Positions 6,659 through 40,450 of a DNA stretch of 40,450 nt are shown here, one piece after another. Position 1 is the first letter of the stretch. Every line of letters begins with the position of its first letter. The translations under genes and the position numbers were made by a program. The stretch comes from a virus (Duplodnaviria > Heunggongvirae > Uroviricota > Caudoviricetes): the IMG/VR virus record IMGVR_UViG_2541047969_000017; one strand, written 5' to 3'. The notes beneath the pieces are model-generated. The model had not been told where the DNA came from and did no database searches. It was given only the letters and a program-made list of their open reading frames with translations.

Positions 6659-6981
6659 CGACATTAACTCAATGCCAGCAGCAGGTGCTGGATATGCTGA
6701 TTTCTTACCAGAAAGAACGTGGCTTCCCGCCAACCAATCAGGAGGTGGCAACCATGCTGGGATACCGTTCAGTGAATGCAGCGGTGGAGCATCTTCGCGC
6801 ACTGGAGAAAAAAGGCGTCATCACGATAAAGCGTGGCGTGGCCCGGGGTATCACTCTTCATACCGCGGTGAAGGACGACGACAGCGAGGCGGTCGGGATT
6901 ATCCGCTCACTGCTTGCCGGTGAGGAAAACGCAAGGCTGCGTGCAACCCACTGGTTACATGAGAGAGGCCTGAAAGTATGA
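6655..6981 (+). CDS. LexA N-terminal-domain-like DNA-binding protein
   Basis: Start overlaps the upstream stop (ATGA). Sequence QQQVLDMLISYQKERGFPPTNQEVATMLGYRSVNAAVEHLRALEKKGVI aligns with the LexA winged-helix domain; no peptidase domain follows. Confidence 0.75.
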   Translation: MTTLTQCQQQVLDMLISYQKERGFPPTNQEVATMLGYRSVNAAVEHLRALEKKGVITIKRGVARGITLHTAVKDDDSEAVGIIRSLLAGEENARLRATHWLHERGLKV

Positions 6982-7367
6982 AGCTGATTCTGCCGTTTCC
7001 GCCCAGCGTGAACACGTACTGGCGACACCCCAACAAAGGGGCGTTTGCAGGTAAGAGCCTGATAAGCGCGGCGGGGCGCAAATTCCAGAGCGCGGCGTGT
7101 GCAGCAATAGTTGAGCAGTTACGTCGTCTGCCAAAACCAACGTCGGCACCTGCTTCAGTGGAGATCGTGTTGTTTCCTCCGGATAACCGGATCCGCGATC
7201 TGGACAACTATAACAAGGCGCTGTTTGACGCCCTGACCCACGCGGGTGTGTGGGAGGACGACAGTCAGGTGAAAAGAATGCTGGTTGAGTGGGGACCGGT
7301 TATCCCGAAAGGGAAGGTCGAGATCACTATCAGTAAGTATGAGAAACCGGCGGGTGCAGCCGCCTGA
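6978..7367 (+). CDS. rusA: Holliday junction resolvase RusA
   Basis: N-terminus MKLILPFPPSVNTYW is the RusA signature; 129 aa; start overlaps the upstream stop. Confidence 0.9.
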   Translation: MKLILPFPPSVNTYWRHPNKGAFAGKSLISAAGRKFQSAACAAIVEQLRRLPKPTSAPASVEIVLFPPDNRIRDLDNYNKALFDALTHAGVWEDDSQVKRMLVEWGPVIPKGKVEITISKYEKPAGAAA

Positions 7368-7386
7368 TTAAGAGGAGAAACGAAGT

Positions 7387-8184
7387 ATGAATAATCTGAT
7401 GGTCATTGATGGTATTGAAGTTCGTCGTGATGCTTATGGTCGTTACAGCCTGAACGATCTTCACAGGGCTGCCGGTTCTCTGGATAAGCATAAGCCTGCA
7501 TTCTGGCTCCGCAATGAGCAAACTGAACATTTAATAAGCGAGTTGCAGATTTGCAACTCGGTCAATATAGAGCCAGTTAACGTTATTCGTGGCGGAAATA
7601 ACCAGGGGACGTATGTCTGCAAAGAACTGGTGTATGCCTATGCAATGTGGATAAGCCCGTCATTCCATCTTAAGGTGATCCGTACTTTCGATATGGTAAC
7701 CAGCGTACCGGAAAAATTATCCGGGCAGGCTGCTGACAAGATGCAGGCTGGTGTGATTCTGCTGGACTTTATGCGCCGGGAATTAAATCTGTCTAACTCT
7801 TCAGTGCTTGGTGCCTGTCAGAAACTCCAGGAGGCTGTTGGCTTACCGAATCTGGCACCGCGCTATGCCATTGATGCTCCTGCTGACGCGCCTGATGGCT
7901 CAAGTCGCCCGACGCTGTCACTGAGTGCACTGCTGAAACAGTATGGTATCCGCCTTACGGCTAATCAGGCATATCACCAGATGGCGAAGCTGGGGATCGT
8001 CGAACAGCGCGAACGATACAGCCGTACAGCGATTAACAACATCAAAAAATTCTGGTCGCTGACGGCGAAAGGCTGCATGTTCGGCAAGAACATCACCAGT
8101 CCTGCAAATCCGCGCGAGACGCAGCCGCATTTCTTCGAATCCCGATTCCCTGAGCTGTTAAAGCTGCTCGATACCGTTCATTGA
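7387..8184 (+). CDS. KilA-N domain protein (antirepressor-like)
   Basis: Track ORF with AAGAGGAGAAA Shine-Dalgarno upstream; N-terminal IDGIEVRRDAYGRYSLNDLHRAAG...KPAFWLR is KilA-N-like. Confidence 0.75.
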   Translation: MNNLMVIDGIEVRRDAYGRYSLNDLHRAAGSLDKHKPAFWLRNEQTEHLISELQICNSVNIEPVNVIRGGNNQGTYVCKELVYAYAMWISPSFHLKVIRTFDMVTSVPEKLSGQAADKMQAGVILLDFMRRELNLSNSSVLGACQKLQEAVGLPNLAPRYAIDAPADAPDGSSRPTLSLSALLKQYGIRLTANQAYHQMAKLGIVEQRERYSRTAINNIKKFWSLTAKGCMFGKNITSPANPRETQPHFFESRFPELLKLLDTVH

Positions 8185-32866: not shown

Positions 32867-32876
32867 TGGAGTGGAT

Positions 32877-34145
32877 ATGGCAGCAGTAAAAATCTCAGGT
32901 GTGCTGAAAGATGGTGCGGGAAAACCAATACAGAACTGCACTATTCAACTGAAGGCAAAGCGTAACAGCACCACGGTACTGGTGAACACGGTGGCCTCTG
33001 AAAATCCGGATGAAGCCGGGCGTTACAGCATGGATGTTGAGTATGGCCAGTACAGCGTCATCCTGCTGGTTGAAGGTTTTCCGCCTTCACATGCCGGGAC
33101 CATTACCGTCTATGAAGGCTCCAGACCAGGTACGCTGAATGATTTTCTCGGTGCCATGACGGAAGATGATGTCATGCCGGAGGCATTGCGTCGTTTTGAG
33201 GAAATGGTGGAAGAAGCGGCACGCAACGCTGAAGCCGCCTCTCAGAGCGCAGCGGCGGCAAAGAAATCCGAAACTGCAGCGGCATCATCGAAGAACGCGG
33301 CGAAAACCTCAGAAACGAATGCAGCTAATAGTGCACAGGCGGCAGCGACCTCACAGACTGCATCAGCAAACTCCGCGACAGCAGCCAAAAAATCAGAAAC
33401 CAACGCGAAAAATAGCGAGACAGCCGCAAAGACGAGCGAAACCAACGCAAAGTCCAGCCAGACGGCAGCGAAGACCAGCGAAACGAATGCTAAAGCCAGT
33501 GAAACTGCGGCAAAAAACAGCCAGGTTGCAGCAGCCCAAAGCGAGAGCGCGGCAGCCGGTTCTGCGACTTCAGCAGCTGGATCAGCAACTGCTGCGGCTA
33601 ACAGCCAGAAAGCTGCGAAGACGAGTGAAACTAACGCAAAGTCCAGCCAGACGGCAGCGAAGACCAGCGAAACGAATGCCAAAGCCAGTGAAACTGCGGC
33701 GAAAAGCAGTCAGGATGCAGCGGCCCAAAGCGAGAGTGCCGCAGCCAGTTCTGCAAGTGAGGCGGCGGCTTCTGCTACTGCATCAGCCAACAGTCAAAAA
33801 GCTGCAAAAACCAGTGAAACCAACGCAAAGGCGAGCGAGACTACGGCGGCCAACTCGGCGAAAGCATCCGCTGCAAGCCAGACCGCTGCAAAAGCAAGTG
33901 AAGACGCAGCCAGAGAGTATGCAAGCCAGGCAGCAGATCCGTATAAATATGTCTTACAGCCGCTGCCTGATGTGTGGATACCGTTTAACGATTCACTGGA
34001 TATGATTACGGGCTTTTCGCCATCATATAAAAAGATTGTTATTGGTGACGACGAAATAACGATGCCTGGCGACAAGATTGTTAAGTTTAAACGTGCATCG
34101 AAAGCAACCTATATTAACAAATCTGGTGTGCTGACAGAGGCTGCC
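32877..34145 (+). pseudogene. stf: Side tail fibre gene, N-terminal part, truncated by IS2
   Basis: ATG at residue 3 of track ORF 32871..34148; MAAVKISGVLKDGAGKPIQNCTIQLKAKRNSTTVLVNTVASENPDEAGRYSMDVEYGQYSV matches the lambda Stf N-terminus. The frame ends at TAG 34146-34148, which is the first three bases of the IS2 left end. Confidence 0.8.
33431..33765 (+). repeat. Direct in-frame duplication (~140 bp units, ~190 bp period) inside stf
   Basis: The segment encoding AKTSETNAKSSQTAAKTSETNAKASETAAK..AAAQSESAAA occurs twice (about 33431-33575 and 33621-33765) with only a few mismatches. Confidence 0.5.
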
Positions 34146-34236
34146 TAGACTGGCCCCCTGAATCTCCAGACAACCAATATCACTTAAATAAGTGATAGTC
34201 TTAATACTAGTTTTTAGACTAGTCATTGGAGAACAG

Positions 34237-34602
34237 ATGATTGATGTCTTAGGGCCGGAGAAACGCAGACGGCGTACTACACAGGAAAAGATCGCTATCG
34301 TTCAGCAGAGCTTTGAACCGGGAATGACGGTCTCCCTTGTTGCCCGGCAACATGGTGTGGCAGCCAGCCAGCTATTTCTCTGGCGTAAGCAATACCAGGA
34401 GGGAAGTCTTACTGCTGTGGCTGCCGGAGAACAGGTCGTTCCTGCCTCTGAACTTGCTGCCGCCATGAAGCAGATTAAAGAACTCCAGCGTCTGCTCGGC
34501 AAAAAAACGATGGAAAATGAACTCCTTAAAGAAGCCGTTGAATATGGGCGAGCAAAAAAGTGGATAGCGCACGCGCCCTTATTGCCCGGGGATGGGGAGT
34601 AA
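34237..34602 (+). CDS. insC: IS2 transposase OrfA (InsC)
   Basis: ATG at residue 16 of track ORF 34192..34602; [56 protein letters not shown] matches InsC as recalled. Confidence 0.9.
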
Positions 34603-35465
34603 GCTTCGTCAGCCGTTGTCTCCGGGTGTCGCGTGCGCAGTTGCACGTCATTCTCAGACGAGCCGATGACTGGAAGGACGGCCGCCGCAGCCGTCACACG
34701 GATGATACGGATGTGCTTCGCCGTATACACCATGTTATCGGAGAGCTACCCACATATGGTTATCGTCGGGTATGGGCGCTGCTTCGCAGACAAACAGAAC
34801 TTGATGGTATGCCTGCGATCAATGCCAAACGTGTTTACCGGATCATGCGCCAGAATGCGCTGTTGCTTGAGCGAAAACCCGCTGTACCGCCATCGAAACG
34901 GGCACATACCGGCAGAGTGGCTGTGAAAGAAAGTAATCAGCGATGGTGCTCTGACGGGTTTGAGTTCCGCTGTGATAACGGAGAAAAACTGCGGGTCACG
35001 TTCGCGCTGGACTGCTGTGACCGTGAGGCACTGCACTGGGCGGTCACAACGGGTGGCTTCGACAGTGAAACAGTACAGGACGTCATGCTGGGAGCAGTGG
35101 AACGCCGCTTTGGCAGCGAGCTTCCGGCGTCTCCAGTGGAGTGGCTGACGGATAATGGTTCATGCTACCGGGCGAATGAAACACGTCAGTTCGCCAGGAT
35201 GTTGGGACTTGAACCGAAGAACACGGCAGTGCGGAGTCCGGAGAGTAACGGAATAGCAGAGAGCTTCGTGAAAACGATAAAGCGTGACTACATAAGTATC
35301 ATGCCCAAACCAGACGGGTTAACGGCAGCAAAGAACCTTGCAGAGGCGTTCGAGCATTATAACGAATGGCATCCGCATAGTGCGCTGGGTTATCGCTCGC
35401 CACGGGAATATCTGCGGCAGTGGGCCAGTGATGGGTTAAGTGATAACAGGTGTCTGGAAATATAG
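34560..35465 (+). CDS. insD: IS2 transposase OrfB (InsD), DDE integrase-like
   Basis: Track ORF, 301 aa, beginning [30 protein letters not shown]; overlaps insC in the -1 frame. Confidence 0.9.
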
Positions 35466-35476
35466 GGGCAAATCCA

Positions 35477-36588
35477 CTGCCATTGATGAGCCTCGATTTG
35501 AACGTGATGGCCTGCTTATTGAGGGGAAAAGAACGAACTACATGCTCAATTCGGAAAACCCTGCCAGTTGGGGGCGATCGTCAAATATGGATGTTCCCGA
35601 AACCGGGACGGATAGTTTTGGTTTTACCTATGGAAAGTTTGTCTGTAACGATTCTCTGATTGGGCAAACCTCAGCCATTAATATGGCATCAATTGCTGCA
35701 ACAAAGTCAGTTGATGTCTCAGGCGATAATAAATACGTGACAACCTCATGTCGTTTTAAAACAGAACTGCAGGTAAGGTTGCGTATCCGATTTGATAAAT
35801 ATGACGGTAGCGCAACAACTTTTCTTGGTGATGCGTATATTGATACACAAACGCTTGAAATTAATATGACAGGCGGCGCTGCCTCAAGGATTACAGCGAG
35901 AGTCAGAAAGGACGAAGCTACCGGATGGATTTTTGCAGAGGCAACAATTCAGGCAATTGATGGGGAGTTAAAAATAGGTTCTCAGATACAGTATTCTCCT
36001 AAGCAGGGCGGGGCAACCGTATCTGGTGACTATATTTATCTGGCCACCCCACAAGTAGAAAATGGGCCTTGTGTATCATCTTTTATTATATCAGGAACGA
36101 CGGCGGCGACCCGCGCAAGCGATATAGTTACAGTTCCCATTAAGAATAATCTTTATAATCTTCCTTTTACGGTTCTTTGTGAGGTACATAAGAACTGGTA
36201 TAAAACGCCAAATGCAGCGCCGCGTGTTTTTGACACCGGCGGTCATCAAACCGGAGCGGCTATTATTCTTGGCTTCGGTTCTTCAGCAGATTACGACGGA
36301 TTTCCTTATTGCGATATTGGAGGAGCTAACAGACGGGTAAACGAAAACGCATTGCTTGAAAAAATGGTTATGGGGATGCGTGTAAAGTCAGATCAGTCTA
36401 CGTGCTCAGTAAGTAACGGGCGTATATCCAGCGAAACAAAAACCACATGGTCCTGTATTCAGAACACCGCAATTATCCGTATTGGAGGCCAGACTACAGC
36501 CGGGTTACGTCATTTATTTGGTCATGTCAGGAATTTCAGAATATGGCACAAGGCATTGACTGATGCTCAGGTGGGGGAGTCAATCTAA
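35477..36588 (+). pseudogene. stf: Side tail fibre gene, C-terminal part downstream of IS2
   Basis: Frame open from the IS2 right junction (track ORF 35440..36588 starts inside IS2). Removing IS2 plus one target-repeat copy (1336 bp) joins this frame in phase to the upstream stf frame (..KSGVLTEAA|IDEPRFERDGLLIEGKRTNYML..). Confidence 0.7.
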
Positions 36589-37955: not shown

Positions 37956-38255
37956 ATGAAAATGGATATAACACCTTTCCTTCATGCGCTTTGTGCTGCG
38001 GCTGCGCAGCTATTGATTGGTCTTTTTACCGGGAACTGGGCTTACGGGGCGATAGCCGGTTGTACGTTCTTCATTGCGCGCGAACATACCCAGGCAGAAT
38101 ATCGCTGGATTGAAATGTTCGGGCATGGCAAGCGTATGAATATGCCGTGGTGGGGCGGTTTTGATCCTCGTGCATGGGATGTGGCAAGCCTGATGGATTT
38201 TTCTGTGCCGGTGGTGGCGTGTCTGCTGGTCTGGCTGTTGGTTAATCGTGGGTGA
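37956..38255 (+). CDS. Small hydrophobic membrane protein
   Basis: ATG at residue 4 of track ORF 37947..38255 with GGTAGG upstream; two or three predicted hydrophobic helices (LHALCAAAAQLLIGLF, VPVVACLLVWLLV). Confidence 0.5.
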   Translation: MKMDITPFLHALCAAAAQLLIGLFTGNWAYGAIAGCTFFIAREHTQAEYRWIEMFGHGKRMNMPWWGGFDPRAWDVASLMDFSVPVVACLLVWLLVNRG

Positions 38256-38558
38256 AAAAAGGTGAGCTGTATATGCAACGGAGGAAGAAACCTCGTTGCT
38301 GGAAGCCTGGAAGAAGTATCGGGTGTTGCTGAATCGCGTTGATACATCAGTAGCACCGGATACTGAGTGGCCGGAAGAACCAGACACAATGTAAGTGAAA
38401 AAGAAAAAACGCAGACACGACGTATGCAGGACGTGCTGCGGTTGGCTGGTGAACTTTCGATAGTGCGAGTATTGAATGATTTCCAGCCGTTACTGATTTT
38501 ACGCATTTCACGCGCAAGAGAAATTGAACTTTATCCCTCTGTCACCCCATGACGGGGA

Positions 38559-39317
38559 TTAACATTCTGGATTTTTTATTTCTAAATCAGATAAAGCATT
38601 AATTCTTATTTTTTCTAAGGCTTTATCCATGGCCCCCTTGATTCTGTATCCATAATCATCCGGTTCTTCATATTCCTGTGGGGACGGATTTGTACCAATA
38701 TTCTCAATCAATTCATTTAAAATAACTGTTACTTCTTTATTAAGAAGAACTGCTTTAGTTAACATCATCTCTGTTAATGCTGTGAAGGCTAGGCTAAGTT
38801 TCTGTTGTAGCTCTTTATTTTTTAATTTTAGATCTTCATCGTTTAGTGCTTTATCACGGTCTTCGTGAGCCTGTTGTACTTCATCCCAAAACTGCTTTTC
38901 TTGTTCTTGATTAAAATATCCTTGATAACTATTGGCTACATATGTTGGCATCATGTGAATCTCAATAATTTCAAATTCATTATCAGCCCATTTTTTTATA
39001 CTAAGTAACTGTGTGTAAATGTACTCATACATATCGTACTTTTTTTGCCAGATTTGTTGAGAAATCCACAACTCAGAAGTAATCTTTTTTTCTATATCTT
39101 TGATAGTTGTTGTATTTAATGCTAACTGCTTTCTGAGTATTTCATAGTTAGCGTTGGTAGCAGAAATTTTTGCTTTTTCAGTTATAAAAGAAACAATAAA
39201 GTTCACTATGAGAGCTACAATAATAATAGCGAAGCTCAACCCCAAAATCTCTGTGGTTGAGAAATTGGATGACTGTAATGCTTTGATAAGTTCAAAAAAC
39301 TGTTTTTCTGTGAGCAT
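38559..39317 (-). CDS. Hypothetical membrane-anchored protein (N-terminal transmembrane helix, coiled-coil-rich), AT-rich
   Basis: Minus-strand track ORF, 252 aa; one hydrophobic segment ILGLSFAIIIVALIVNFIVSFI near the N-terminus, then a charged Lys/Glu-rich region; composition clearly more AT-rich than the phage backbone. Confidence 0.6.
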   Translation of the reverse strand: MLTEKQFFELIKALQSSNFSTTEILGLSFAIIIVALIVNFIVSFITEKAKISATNANYEILRKQLALNTTTIKDIEKKITSELWISQQIWQKKYDMYEYIYTQLLSIKKWADNEFEIIEIHMMPTYVANSYQGYFNQEQEKQFWDEVQQAHEDRDKALNDEDLKLKNKELQQKLSLAFTALTEMMLTKAVLLNKEVTVILNELIENIGTNPSPQEYEEPDDYGYRIKGAMDKALEKIRINALSDLEIKNPEC

Positions 39318-39415
39318 GGTGCCTTACCAAAAATTAAGACTGTTATCTATATAAAAATGTTACCCAAGAGGGATTGTAATGAAATAACAAACCGGCACAT
39401 TGGCCGGTTTGAAGT

Positions 39416-40450
39416 TCAAGGAGGTGAGATTGTAGAGGCGTTACCTTGTTCTATCACACCAGACCTAATCTTGTAACTACCAAGGATGTTGACCGTTTTA
39501 TTATTTTTCATCGCGTCAAAAATTAAGCCTATTTCATCAGGGTCATTGATAAAACTGGTATCAACATAGATCGGGAATGAATCATCACCTGTTGGCTCAT
39601 GGCAGCTTAACGTTAGCTTATCGGCTGAGCGTTTTATACTATCAATGACAACTTCCAATGTTTGCTGCTCTGACTTAGCCTTTTCAATTGGGTTCTTGAT
39701 GATTTCTTGAACCTGACCTTGCGAAAGTTCAATATTGCTGGCCCCGCGGATCGTCACTTTGTCTGCATCAGATGCACCTTTAAGAACTCCAGTGTATGCC
39801 TTAGCGGTGTGCTCTTGGATACCTTCGGCGCGCTCTATCGTATCAATACCTTCATGTGCTTTTATTGCAGACAGCATACCATCGCGTAGAATTGTCATCC
39901 GCTCGGATTCTGCTCGCTGTTTTGCTTCTTCCTGTTGTAACTCAATAGTTTTGGTTTCGACTTGTGTCTGATGATCTAAGTAGGACGTACCGACCCATGC
40001 GCCGCCTAAAACTAAGACAGCAAACAGGAAACACATTGTTTTCTGTCTTGGGCTCATACCTTGTGTTACCTTCTCAAATGCGTTACCAAAGGAATCAATA
40101 AGTTCTTTAACTGAGGTGATAATTTCTGTACAGCCAGGTTTGATAGTAAAAACCAACTCTGCAGCTTCTCTATCCTCAGCAGTGAGCTTCTGTAAGTTAG
40201 AGGTTTTGTACTTGATTAGAGTAAAAACCTTGTACATCTCAGTTTGAAATTCACAAATACCCTGTGCCAAACCTGCAGGCAGAGTACCATTATACTTATC
40301 TTCATCACCAAAAAATTTGAAATCAATACTTTCTAAGAAGTTTAACTTCAAATTTTCAATGTGGATTTCTTCGCCTGAAATAACTCGGTCGAAAATATTT
40401 CCTATATCATCAATATCATTGATTTCATAGGTCTGAATTGCATCTTCCAT
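39416..40450 (-). CDS. Hypothetical membrane protein with one central transmembrane segment, AT-rich; start at or beyond the window edge
   Basis: Minus-strand track ORF, 344 aa, whose first codon is the last three bases of the window, so the true N-terminus may lie outside; central hydrophobic segment MCFLFAVLVLGGAWVGTSYL; no recognisable catalytic motif. Confidence 0.55.
   Translation of the reverse strand: MEDAIQTYEINDIDDIGNIFDRVISGEEIHIENLKLNFLESIDFKFFGDEDKYNGTLPAGLAQGICEFQTEMYKVFTLIKYKTSNLQKLTAEDREAAELVFTIKPGCTEIITSVKELIDSFGNAFEKVTQGMSPRQKTMCFLFAVLVLGGAWVGTSYLDHQTQVETKTIELQQEEAKQRAESERMTILRDGMLSAIKAHEGIDTIERAEGIQEHTAKAYTGVLKGASDADKVTIRGASNIELSQGQVQEIIKNPIEKAKSEQQTLEVVIDSIKRSADKLTLSCHEPTGDDSFPIYVDTSFINDPDEIGLIFDAMKNNKTVNILGSYKIRSGVIEQGNASTISPP

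What the first reader, a model, noticed from the sequence alone, without database searches (positions are those of the whole stretch)
38559..39317. Second gene of the AT-rich pair: N-terminally anchored coiled-coil protein
The protein has one N-terminal hydrophobic helix followed by about 200 residues rich in Lys/Glu/Gln with heptad-like periodicity. It sits 98 bp downstream of the larger gene on the same strand, consistent with one operon. A membrane-tethered coiled-coil partner of another membrane protein fits a sensor or effector role in exclusion or abortive infection, but this is speculation.
Basis: inference. Interest (0 to 1): 0.5.

Follow-up and report, generated by a model that had tools for sequence, protein, structure and literature searches.

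The report
Orphan membrane-anchored prophage cargo gene
This is a real, conserved but rare gene carried as cargo at the ends of prophages; it encodes a membrane-anchored, all-helical protein of an undescribed family that is probably a stand-alone anti-phage factor, and it is not an obligate partner of the gene upstream.

Summary
The ORF is real. It lies at 38559-39317 on the minus strand, encodes 252 aa and is UTI89_C5140 / Q1R274 / WP_000954672.1. It has one N-terminal transmembrane helix (residues 24-46) followed by an acidic, all-alpha domain of about 205 aa. Charge distribution across the family predicts an N-out/C-in topology. A heptad (coiled-coil) signal is not above chance.

The gene belongs to a small family under purifying selection (dN/dS 0.07-0.22) with 31-35% GC in every host. 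It is found in 35 of 5426 complete E. coli genomes. The family has no match in Pfam, NCBIfam, PADLOC, PDB sequences or PDB folds. A wider superfamily of about 200 representatives shares only the TM helix and the juxtamembrane helix (W-x2-QQ-x-W).

The "pair" is not a conserved system:
- The upstream 344-aa gene carries its own terminator in every context examined.
- Below about 81% identity the two families never co-occur.
- Each family occurs alone elsewhere. The 344-aa family sits directly after cI, in the rexAB position.
- The pair is a young composite block flanked by a roughly 100-nt direct repeat, and it also occurs in an Enterobacter prophage.

Homologues of the 252-aa gene sit in att-proximal or tail-fibre-distal cargo slots beside McrA-like, RnlAB, PDC-S39, RM and HicAB genes. 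Distant relatives follow TIR or DUF4145 genes.

My best reading is a stand-alone, membrane-anchored abortive-infection or exclusion factor. This is inferred, not shown.

The parts
38559..39317 (-). CDS of the 252-aa protein (UTI89_C5140 / Q1R274 / WP_000954672.1). It is a single-pass membrane protein with an acidic, all-helical C-terminal domain.
   Evidence: ORF and sequence. Identity to the UTI89 annotation. Identifiers. 56 homologue clusters. dN/dS 0.07-0.22. AF2 model with pLDDT 78.7.
39180..39248 (-). Codons for the transmembrane helix (residues 24-46, ILGLSFAIIIVALIVNFIVSFIT).
   Evidence: Hydropathy maximum 2.92. Across 55 superfamily members, mean K+R is 0.65 in the N-flank and 3.47 in the C-flank, which predicts N-out/C-in. 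TMHMM gives 1 TM helix per PMC5404293 Table S6.
39027..39077 (-). Codons for the invariant juxtamembrane motif S81-E-L-W-x-S-Q-Q-x-W-Q-K-K-Y-x-x-Y97, the signature of the family and the superfamily.
   Evidence: Invariant columns in the 35-sequence alignment A1. W84 is invariant, and Q87 and W90 nearly invariant, in the 55-member superfamily alignment A2. Most remote hits align only to profile positions about 22-105. W84, Q87, Q91 and Y94 fall on a/d positions of one helix face.
39318..39362 (-). 5' leader of the 252-aa gene. It holds the conserved -10-like TAACAT (39357-39362) and the Shine-Dalgarno AAGG (39322-39325). Homology to the family's own upstream region starts here. The family's usual -35 region is missing.
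   Evidence: Alignment A4 of upstream regions from nine contexts. Raw upstream sequences. No consensus sigma-70 promoter is called here. That this element is a promoter is inference.
39378..39411 (-). Intrinsic-terminator-like hairpin (CAAACCGGC-CAATGT-GCCGGTTTG) plus T-rich tail. It belongs to the upstream 344-aa gene and separates the two genes.
   Evidence: Terminator scan, 9 pairs of which 6 are G-C. Homologous hairpins follow the 344-aa gene in Citrobacter, Yersinia and Proteus loci. The hairpin is conserved in the Enterobacter copy of the pair.
39416..40450 (-). Upstream neighbour: the 344-aa protein (UTI89_C5141 / Q1R273 / WP_000389073.1, phrog_6191). It is an independent cargo module, not an obligate partner.
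38511..38556 (-). Decayed remnant of the 3' part of a tRNA-Pro gene, immediately after the stop codon. It is an att-site relic that travels with the gene.
   Evidence: Alignment of downstream regions. The Citrobacter copy is 96% identical to E. coli tRNA-Pro. ARAGORN finds no complete tRNA. Rfam finds no match. Consensus folding energy is only -3.2 kcal/mol.
38404..38503 (.). Left copy of a roughly 100-nt direct repeat (93-95% identical) that brackets the 2.39-kb two-gene block. The right copy lies about 340 nt beyond the window end, next to the DinI-like gene.
   Evidence: the repeat finder family D1 in L001 (8129-8204 and 10516-10591). Extended pairwise alignment.

Best explanation
The gene is a self-contained, horizontally mobile cargo ('moron') gene of prophages and other integrative elements.

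Shown or strongly indicated:
- It encodes a 29-kDa bitopic inner-membrane protein with a roughly 23-residue N-terminal tail outside, one TM helix, and an acidic all-alpha domain of about 205 residues in the cytoplasm.
- It is the founding member of an undescribed family.
- The family's conserved core is the TM helix plus a juxtamembrane helix bearing an invariant Trp/Gln/Tyr stripe. The C-terminal part varies across the wider superfamily.
- It is not an obligate partner of the upstream 344-aa gene. In this lineage two independent modules were fused into one block, which recombined into the variable slot between the tail-fibre genes and the DinI-like gene.

Inferred mechanism:
- The protein is made in the lysogen and protects it against other phages as a single-gene, membrane-anchored abortive-infection or exclusion factor.
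- The variable cytoplasmic helical domain senses a phage protein.
- Sensing releases or reorganises the conserved juxtamembrane/TM module, which oligomerises and compromises the inner membrane, or blocks a membrane-associated step. Infection aborts.
- This is analogous to the membrane-anchored prophage or plasmid Abi proteins AbiP and PdpSau.
For: Real, selected gene:
- 56 clusters of 47-99% identity with conserved length, and 40 invariant residues.
- dN/dS is 0.07-0.22.

Topology:
- There is a single hydrophobic helix.
- The positive-inside bias is 0.65 against 3.47 K+R. Many superfamily members start the TM helix at residues 1-7.

Fold and family status:
- The model is all-helical.
- There are no hits in Pfam, NCBIfam, PADLOC or PDB sequences, either for this protein or for 55 superfamily members.

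Mobility and cargo status:
- GC is 31-35% in hosts ranging from Aeromonas to Klebsiella.
- The gene is present in 35 of 5426 complete E. coli genomes and in 2 of 185,579 species-representative genomes.
- It lies within about 2 kb of the provirus end in 10 of 10 IMG/VR contigs.
- It travels with a conserved upstream region (5 of 8 other contexts, A4) and a tRNA-Pro att relic (6 of 8).

Independence from the 344-aa gene:.

Defence-type neighbourhood of homologues:
- RnlAB and T5orf172.
- PDC-S39.
- A fused RM enzyme.
- A McrA-like HNH enzyme.
- HicAB.

Distant relatives are the downstream gene after a TIR protein or a DUF4145 protein.

Conserved N-terminal module and variable C-terminus.

Precedent for this architecture acting as an Abi protein comes from AbiP and PdpSau (PMC13064643, PMC10127798).

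There is weak evidence of promoter activity in UTI89 (PMC5404293).
Against: - No experiment links this family to phage resistance.
- The same prophage slot also carries non-defence cargo elsewhere: T3SS effectors EspW and EspM2, ydfK, and invertases. Position alone is therefore not specific.
- Many neighbours of homologues are of unknown function or are SOS-related (SRAP, UmuDC, DinI) rather than defence genes.
- The neighbourhood association was not tested statistically.
- Unlike AbiP and PdpSau, the cytoplasmic domain is acidic (net charge -10, pI 4.9) and has no OB fold.
- In this window the family's usual -35 region is missing and no consensus promoter is called. Expression may be weak or may depend on read-through.
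- The only expression data come from a screen whose hits cluster suspiciously in one chromosomal region.
- The topology is predicted, not measured.
Confidence: 0.4

Rival explanations
1. The 344-aa and 252-aa genes form one two-gene system, a sensor plus a membrane effector, co-transcribed and functionally dependent on each other.
For: - The genes share a strand and are 98 nt apart.
- The pair, with its spacer conserved, occurs in 28 E. coli genomes. It also occurs in an unrelated Enterobacter prophage at ssrA, at 90% and 94% protein identity.
- In the window the 252-aa gene has lost its usual -35 region, so read-through from upstream could matter.
- The terminator's T-tract is interrupted.
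- Distant superfamily members are often the second gene after a variable partner such as TIR or DUF4145.
- The 344-aa protein has an OB fold that could act as a sensor.
Against: - A terminator hairpin lies between the genes and is an inherited part of the 344-aa module.
- The two families never co-occur once the 252-aa protein is at or below 81% identity: 13 contexts against 9 reciprocal ones.
- Each family is found alone in positions typical of single-gene cargo. The 344-aa family sits directly after cI. The 252-aa family sits beside att sites.
- GC content differs by 8 points.
Confidence: 0.1
2. The protein is a superinfection or entry-exclusion protein. It sits in the inner membrane and directly blocks entry of incoming phage or conjugative DNA, without killing the cell. 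This would resemble Sie-type proteins, HK97 gp15, or the Eex/TraS proteins of conjugative elements.
For: - It is a single-pass inner-membrane protein encoded as prophage cargo.
- One distant relative lies directly after a VirB/Trb type IV secretion gene cluster on a conjugative element, a typical place for entry-exclusion genes.
- No catalytic-looking conserved residues are present.
Against: - About 80% of the protein is predicted to be cytoplasmic, and only about 23 residues face the periplasm.
- There is no match to the SieB family or to any other Pfam or PHROG exclusion family.
- Relatives next to TIR or HEPN-like (DUF4145) genes fit effector logic better.
Confidence: 0.15
3. The protein is a lysogenic-conversion factor unrelated to phages. 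It would modulate envelope physiology or host-cell interaction of the uropathogen.
For: - The same slot in other lambdoid prophages carries virulence effectors.
- UTI89_C5140 and its neighbours were listed as induced inside bladder epithelial cells. Deleting the adjacent 'UTI89_C5139' raised adhesion and invasion by 25% (PMC5404293).
Against: - The family occurs in Aeromonas, Serratia, Pantoea, Pectobacterium, Kosakonia and environmental metagenomes, so it is not tied to pathogens.
- Most of the 34 'induced' regions in that screen lie in one roughly 100-kb stretch of the chromosome, which suggests a regional artefact.
- The deletion did not remove this gene. It removed part of a different gene on the opposite strand.
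Confidence: 0.15
4. The protein is a membrane toxin or addiction-type module that stabilises the mobile element, or it is a decaying passenger with no current function.
For: - It is a small, AT-rich membrane protein at the end of an element.
- A HicAB toxin-antitoxin pair and RnlAB lie nearby in some contexts.
- No consensus promoter is present in the window.
Against: - No cognate antitoxin gene is conserved next to it.
- It is intact in all 28 high-quality E. coli copies and under purifying selection across genera. That argues against decay.
Confidence: 0.08

Closest known systems
AbiP (Lactococcus) and PdpSau (Staphylococcus aureus Sa2-type prophages): single-gene, membrane-anchored abortive-infection proteins
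   Same: All three are proteins of about 230-280 aa with one N-terminal TM helix and the bulk of the protein in the cytoplasm. Each is encoded as an accessory gene of a plasmid or prophage and acts alone. PdpSau causes membrane depolarisation on infection (PMC13064643 and PMC10127798).
   Different: AbiP and PdpSau have a positively charged, OB-fold-like nucleic-acid-binding domain. The protein here is acidic (net charge -10) and all-helical with no OB fold. No sequence similarity was detectable: tblastn found no hit in 50,697 phage records. Notably, the neighbouring 344-aa protein is the one that combines a hydrophobic helix with an OB fold.
Lambda rexAB and other lysogen-expressed exclusion genes of lambdoid phages
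   Same: Both are prophage-borne, lysogeny-associated cargo thought to act through the membrane (RexB is a membrane protein, from general knowledge). The neighbouring 344-aa family occupies the rexAB position exactly, 22 nt after cI in phage mEp332.
   Different: There is no sequence or fold relation, and the PADLOC and Pfam scans are negative. The 252-aa gene itself was never found in the immunity region. It occurs at att-proximal or tail-fibre-distal ends.
TM effectors of TIR-based defence systems (Thoeris-like, Rst_2TM_1TM_TIR)
   Same: A distant superfamily member (P0291, 200 aa, one TM helix) lies 135 nt downstream of a TIR-domain protein, in an islet between housekeeping genes.
   Different: No TIR gene lies near the window gene or its close homologues. 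No PADLOC model of such effectors matches.
Att-proximal defence cargo of e14-like prophages (mcrA of E. coli K-12 e14; from general knowledge)
   Same: Homologues occupy the same kind of slot, next to icd fragments and integrase remnants. In one provirus the homologue sits directly beside a McrA-like HNH gene.
   Different: The similarity is one of position only. The proteins are unrelated.

Membership tests
AbiP / PdpSau membrane-anchored Abi proteins | A single N-terminal transmembrane anchor with the rest of the protein in the cytoplasm | tested here: met
   Hydropathy. Positive-inside analysis. TMHMM gives 1 TM helix in PMC5404293 Table S6. This is prediction only.
AbiP / PdpSau membrane-anchored Abi proteins | A basic, OB-fold-like, nucleic-acid-binding cytoplasmic domain | tested here: not met
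   [not shown]
AbiP / PdpSau membrane-anchored Abi proteins | Abortive-infection phenotype, with membrane depolarisation on infection | not testable with these tools
   This needs phage challenge and membrane-potential assays.
Conserved two-gene system with the upstream 344-aa gene | The two families co-occur across diverged homologues | tested here: not met
   tblastn over 43 loci shows the pair only at 90% identity or above. There are 13 solo contexts of the 252-aa family and 9 of the 344-aa family.
Conserved two-gene system with the upstream 344-aa gene | Co-transcription, meaning no terminator between the genes | tested here: inconclusive
   A strong hairpin with a T-rich tail lies between them and is inherited with the 344-aa gene. 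However, the T-tract is interrupted and the downstream gene lacks a clear promoter. No transcript data are available.
Canonical coiled-coil protein | Sustained heptad (a/d) hydrophobic periodicity above composition-matched chance | tested here: not met
   The crude register score is not above shuffles: 55% of shuffles reach the maximum and 11% reach the mean. AF2 gives a multi-helix bundle. No dedicated coiled-coil predictor was available.
Rz-type i-spanin (N-terminal TM helix plus periplasmic coiled coil) | Located in the lysis cassette with an o-spanin partner, with a periplasmic C-terminal domain | tested here: not met
   The gene lies at the far end of the prophage beyond the tail fibres. 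ORFs whose layout resembles a lambdoid lysis cassette lie at about 11.8-13.0 kb of the window, but they were not annotated here. The predicted topology is C-in.
Known defence, exclusion or phage protein families (PADLOC v2, Pfam including SieB, PHROGs, NCBIfam) | A significant profile match | tested here: not met
   Best hits were LeoBC at E = 0.016, phrog_13188 at E = 0.039 and PspC at E = 0.25. Pfam gave none. 55 superfamily members also gave no consistent hit.
   There is no PHROG structural family match. tblastn found no hit in 50,697 phage genomes.

The most novel reading that the evidence does not exclude
The protein is the founding, experimentally tractable member of a previously unrecognised superfamily of bitopic membrane proteins, with about 200 representative clusters at 50% identity. 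The conserved TM helix plus the Trp/Gln-stripe juxtamembrane helix would form a new membrane-targeting antiphage effector module. That module would be used either alone with a variable cytoplasmic sensor domain, as here, or downstream of TIR or HEPN-like (DUF4145) partners in two-gene systems.
Probability: 0.3. Interest if true: 0.6.

Novelty: new variant of a known kind. Interest (0 to 1): 0.4.

Why it matters
If the inferred role is right, this would be a new single-gene antiphage family carried by prophages of Enterobacterales. Its compact effector module (one TM helix plus a conserved helix) is unrelated to known defence proteins and is reused in a wider superfamily next to TIR-type genes. 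That would add a membrane effector type to the defence repertoire. It would also provide a simple model for how a bitopic protein senses infection.

The analysis also corrects the picture of this locus:
- The two AT-rich genes are separate cargo modules that became linked recently.
- The neighbouring 344-aa family, which occupies the rexAB position in other phages and has an OB fold, is at least as good a candidate for study.
- The published UTI89_C5139 deletion phenotype probably does not concern a real gene of that name.

If the role is wrong, the gene remains an ordinary orphan moron.

Tried and rejected
- **Profile searches.** Pfam, PADLOC, PHROGs and NCBIfam gave nothing significant for the protein or for 55 superfamily members.
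- **PDB sequence search.** The family profile found nothing.
- **Phage and plasmid collections.** tblastn found no phage hit and one Pantoea megaplasmid hit.
- **Heptad test.** Not above shuffles.
- **A functional RNA downstream of the stop codon.** ARAGORN found no tRNA. Rfam found no match. The consensus fold is weak at -3.2 kcal/mol. The element proved to be a relic of the 3' end of tRNA-Pro.
- **LexA box upstream.** Read by eye in the sequence; none found.
- **Literature.** No paper mentions the RefSeq accessions. Only the DFI-seq paper mentions the locus tags. The DefensePredictor supplementary tables hold neither the accessions nor the sequence motifs, although some of those files are stored truncated.
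- **Metagenome scan.** The first alignment (A7) was too diverse to derive search patterns. A narrower alignment (A8) returned 15 mostly short contigs.
- **Species-representative genomes.** The scan found only two loci, so a broad co-occurrence census was not possible that way.
- **HepS paper.** PMC13043305 was checked and is unrelated.
Full report
**Where the window comes from**

The window is a lambdoid prophage. The 2.15-kb query spanning the finding (window 38300-40450) is 100% identical to E. coli UTI89, NU14 and relatives. The prophage is integrated next to prfC. The gene order at its right end is: J, Lom, side tail fibre, two small genes, a tail-fibre-domain gene, a 97-aa membrane protein, a remnant of a tail-fibre assembly gene, the 252-aa gene (minus strand), and the 344-aa gene (minus strand). 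Just outside the window come a DinI-like gene and host prfC. RefSeq calls both AT-rich genes 'hypothetical protein' (WP_000954672.1 and WP_000389073.1).

**Check of the observation**

The ORF at 38559-39317 is intact on the minus strand. It encodes 252 aa, starts with ATG, and has an AAGG Shine-Dalgarno sequence 5 nt upstream.

It has one strongly hydrophobic segment, residues 24-46, and no other. A published TMHMM run on the same protein (Q1R274, UTI89_C5140) also gave one helix (PMC5404293 Table S6).

The remaining 206 residues are 29% Glu, Lys and Gln. They carry a net charge of -10 and have a pI of 4.9.

AlphaFold2, run with a 35-sequence alignment, gives an all-helical model with mean pLDDT 78.7 and pTM 0.43. 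One long helix (21-129) contains the TM segment. Four further helices follow: 137-159, 161-191, 194-207 and 219-244.

The claimed heptad periodicity is not more than chance in a simple register test against shuffles. 'Amphipathic helical bundle' describes the protein better than 'coiled coil'.

**It is a real gene of an undescribed family**

The large protein collection holds 56 clusters related to this protein, at 47-99% identity. Most full-length clusters are 249-252 aa long (a few reach 283 aa), and about a fifth are truncated fragments of 139-228 aa. Those that carry an organism name come from Enterobacterales and Aeromonas; about half are unnamed metagenome or read-assembly sequences. All that carry a name are 'hypothetical'.

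Forty positions are invariant, including S81-E-L-W-x-S-Q-Q-x-W-Q-K-K-Y and Y-E-x-P-D-x-Y-x-x-R.

Pairwise dN/dS is 0.07-0.22 wherever synonymous sites are not saturated. Every copy has 31-35% GC, whatever the host.

An exhaustive profile search of 1.84 billion representative proteins finds 197 representatives at E <= 0.001. Most of them align only to profile positions about 22-105, which cover the TM helix and the following helix. In that superfamily W84 is invariant, and A53, T69, Q87, W90 and L245 are nearly so.

**Topology**

Across 55 superfamily members, the 15 residues before the TM helix hold on average 0.65 Lys+Arg. The 15 residues after it hold 3.47. Many members begin the TM helix at residues 1-7.

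By the positive-inside rule, the short N-terminus faces the periplasm and the helical domain is cytoplasmic. This is a prediction, not a measurement.

**The pair is not a conserved system**

A hairpin with 9 pairs, 6 of them G-C, followed by a T-rich tail, lies 5 nt after the stop codon of the 344-aa gene. Homologous hairpins follow the 344-aa gene in Citrobacter, Yersinia and Proteus loci, so the terminator belongs to that gene.

The 252-aa family occurs without any 344-aa relative in many settings:
- Aeromonas, in an islet between formate dehydrogenase genes.
- Citrobacter, at two different junctions.
- A metagenomic icd junction.
- Klebsiella.
- Two other E. coli prophage ends, at 71% DNA identity.
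- Serratia and Rahnella.
- Four (L035-L038) of the ten IMG/VR proviruses.

The 344-aa family, in turn, occurs alone:
- Directly after cI in Citrobacter prophages and in phage mEp332, 22 nt after cI in the rexAB position.
- Beside an Abi_2 gene in Proteus.
- At the end of a Mu-like prophage in Yersinia.

A tblastn of both proteins over all 43 loci fetched up to that point confirmed this. Among those loci, co-occurrence appeared only where the 252-aa protein is at least 94% identical. A later lookup added an Enterobacter hormaechei prophage at ssrA in which the pair is kept with the same spacer and hairpin, at 90% and 94% protein identity.

So the pair is a young composite block that moves between prophages. 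It is not an ancient operon.

**How the block was built and inserted**

In five of the eight other contexts aligned (A4), the 252-aa gene carries about 130 nt of conserved upstream sequence, which includes a TTGAAC-16/17-TAACCT promoter-like element. In six of eight contexts, about 50 nt downstream represent the 3' part of a tRNA-Pro gene. That downstream piece is 96% identical to E. coli tRNA-Pro in the Citrobacter copy. Such a piece is the signature of a gene sitting at the very edge of a tRNA-integrating element.

In the window the tRNA relic has decayed (38511-38556). Homology to the family's upstream region begins only at the -10-like TAACAT (39357-39362). The -35 region has been replaced by the terminator of the 344-aa gene.

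The whole 2.39-kb block is bracketed by a direct repeat of about 100 nt at 93-95% identity. This repeat is the sequence normally found between the tail-fibre assembly gene and the DinI-like gene.

That slot is variable in sister prophages. It holds a recombinase with ydfK and ynaM in one, the T3SS effectors EspW and EspM2 in O157:H7, and an invertase in another.

**Functional inference**

The family is rare and patchy. It is present in 35 of 5426 complete E. coli genomes and in 2 of 185,579 species-representative genomes. It is absent from 50,697 sequenced phage genomes. It lies within about 2 kb of the provirus end in all ten IMG/VR hits.

Its neighbours in different contexts include several defence or toxin-antitoxin genes:
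- RnlAB and a T5orf172 protein.
- The PADLOC defence candidate PDC-S39.
- A fused restriction-modification enzyme.
- A McrA-like HNH type IV restriction enzyme.
- HicAB.

It also neighbours SOS-type cargo (SRAP, UmuDC, DinI) and proteins of unknown function.

Distant superfamily members are frequently the downstream gene of a tight pair. The upstream partner is a TIR-domain protein, a DUF4145 protein, or an unknown protein.

The conserved residues are Trp, Gln, Tyr, Thr and Ala rather than a catalytic set. W84, Q87, Q91 and Y94 fall on one helix face.

Taken together, the pattern is a conserved membrane module, a variable cytoplasmic domain, mobile AT-rich cargo, defence-rich neighbourhoods, and TIR-linked relatives. 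I read this as a stand-alone, membrane-anchored abortive-infection or exclusion factor. Its cytoplasmic domain would sense a phage product. Its juxtamembrane/TM module would then act on the membrane. None of these steps is shown experimentally.

**Comparison with known systems**

The closest functional analogues are AbiP of Lactococcus and PdpSau of S. aureus prophages. Both are single accessory genes encoding an N-terminal TM anchor and a cytoplasmic domain. PdpSau causes membrane depolarisation on infection (PMC13064643 and PMC10127798).

The protein here fails one defining feature of that group. It is acidic and all-helical, with no basic OB-fold-like nucleic-acid-binding domain. It also shows no sequence similarity to any phage record.

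It is not an Rz-type spanin. It lies far from the ORFs at about 11.8-13.0 kb whose layout resembles a lysis cassette, which were not annotated here. Its predicted topology is also wrong for a spanin. It matches no known exclusion family in Pfam or PHROGs.

**Published data**

One paper touches the locus. A promoter-trap screen (DFI-seq) in UTI89 listed UTI89_C5140 (this gene), C5141 (the 344-aa gene) and C5139 among regions enriched in bladder epithelial cells, with rLogFC values of 1.84, 1.65 and 1.55 (PMC5404293).

Only 4,320 events were sorted in that experiment. Most of the 34 'induced' regions lie within the last roughly 100 kb of the chromosome (C5068-C5163, yjj, deo, osmY, slt). I therefore treat this as weak evidence of promoter activity.

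**Verdict**

The operon or partner interpretation is not supported. The exclusion or abortive-infection guess remains the best hypothesis but is untested. The family is undescribed.

My overall interest score is moderate, at 0.4. The upside is that this may be a new membrane effector superfamily.

Noticed in passing
window 38042-38506 (minus strand): The published 'gene' UTI89_C5139 (Q1R275), whose deletion raised adhesion and invasion by 25%, is this minus-strand ORF; the knock-out primers match exactly. It runs antisense to the 97-aa phrog_1443 membrane-protein gene (37962-38255, + strand) and to the tail-fibre-assembly remnant (38275-38394, + strand). RefSeq does not annotate it. The deletion therefore removed about two thirds of a different, conserved gene.
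   Followed up: partly
[not shown]
   Followed up: partly
window 34192-35465: An IS2 element interrupts the side tail-fibre gene. NCBIfam identifies the IS2 TnpA repressor at E = 3e-83 and IS2 TnpB at E = 6e-210. The gene is split into 32871-34148 and 35440-36588. In the UTI89 reference it is an intact 2376-bp ORF. The window therefore comes from a close relative of UTI89, and its prophage probably makes no side tail fibres.
   Followed up: partly
window 38511-38556; L006 8766-8815; L040 about 7765-7815: Immediately after the stop codon of the 252-aa gene lies a relic of the 3' end of tRNA-Pro. In the Citrobacter copy it is 96% identical to E. coli tRNA-Pro. In the Klebsiella and Citrobacter copies it is followed by what looks like a terminator and then an SRAP (YedK-like) gene. 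The arrangement looks like an old att junction that has been carried along into several different prophages.
   Followed up: partly
window 38404-38503 and L001 10492-10591 (outside the window): A direct repeat of about 100 nt at 93-95% identity brackets the 2.39-kb two-gene block. The repeated sequence occurs in about 3400 E. coli genomes, between tail-fibre assembly genes and DinI-like genes. It probably serves as a recombination linker for exchanging cargo.
   Followed up: partly
L024-L026 (metagenome and MAG contigs), genes at 6712-7866 and 8001-8603 of L024: A distant superfamily member (200 aa, one TM helix) lies 135 nt downstream of a 384-aa TIR-domain protein. The two sit in an islet between the CCA-adding enzyme gene and dinB. 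This may be an undescribed Thoeris-like system made of a TIR protein and a TM effector.
   Followed up: no
L019 6288-6929 and L020 6288-6929; L037 10564-11250: The 71%-identity E. coli variant of the gene is always convergent with a conserved protein of 213-228 aa of unknown function. That protein has only a weak PADLOC PDC-S50 hit, E = 3e-4 to 6e-4. The pairing recurs in three different prophage ends.
   Followed up: no
window end (40450): The window, and five IMG/VR provirus contigs, stop exactly at the start codon of the 344-aa gene. The promoter region of that gene, the right-hand repeat copy, the DinI-like gene and the true prophage end all lie outside the window.
   Followed up: yes
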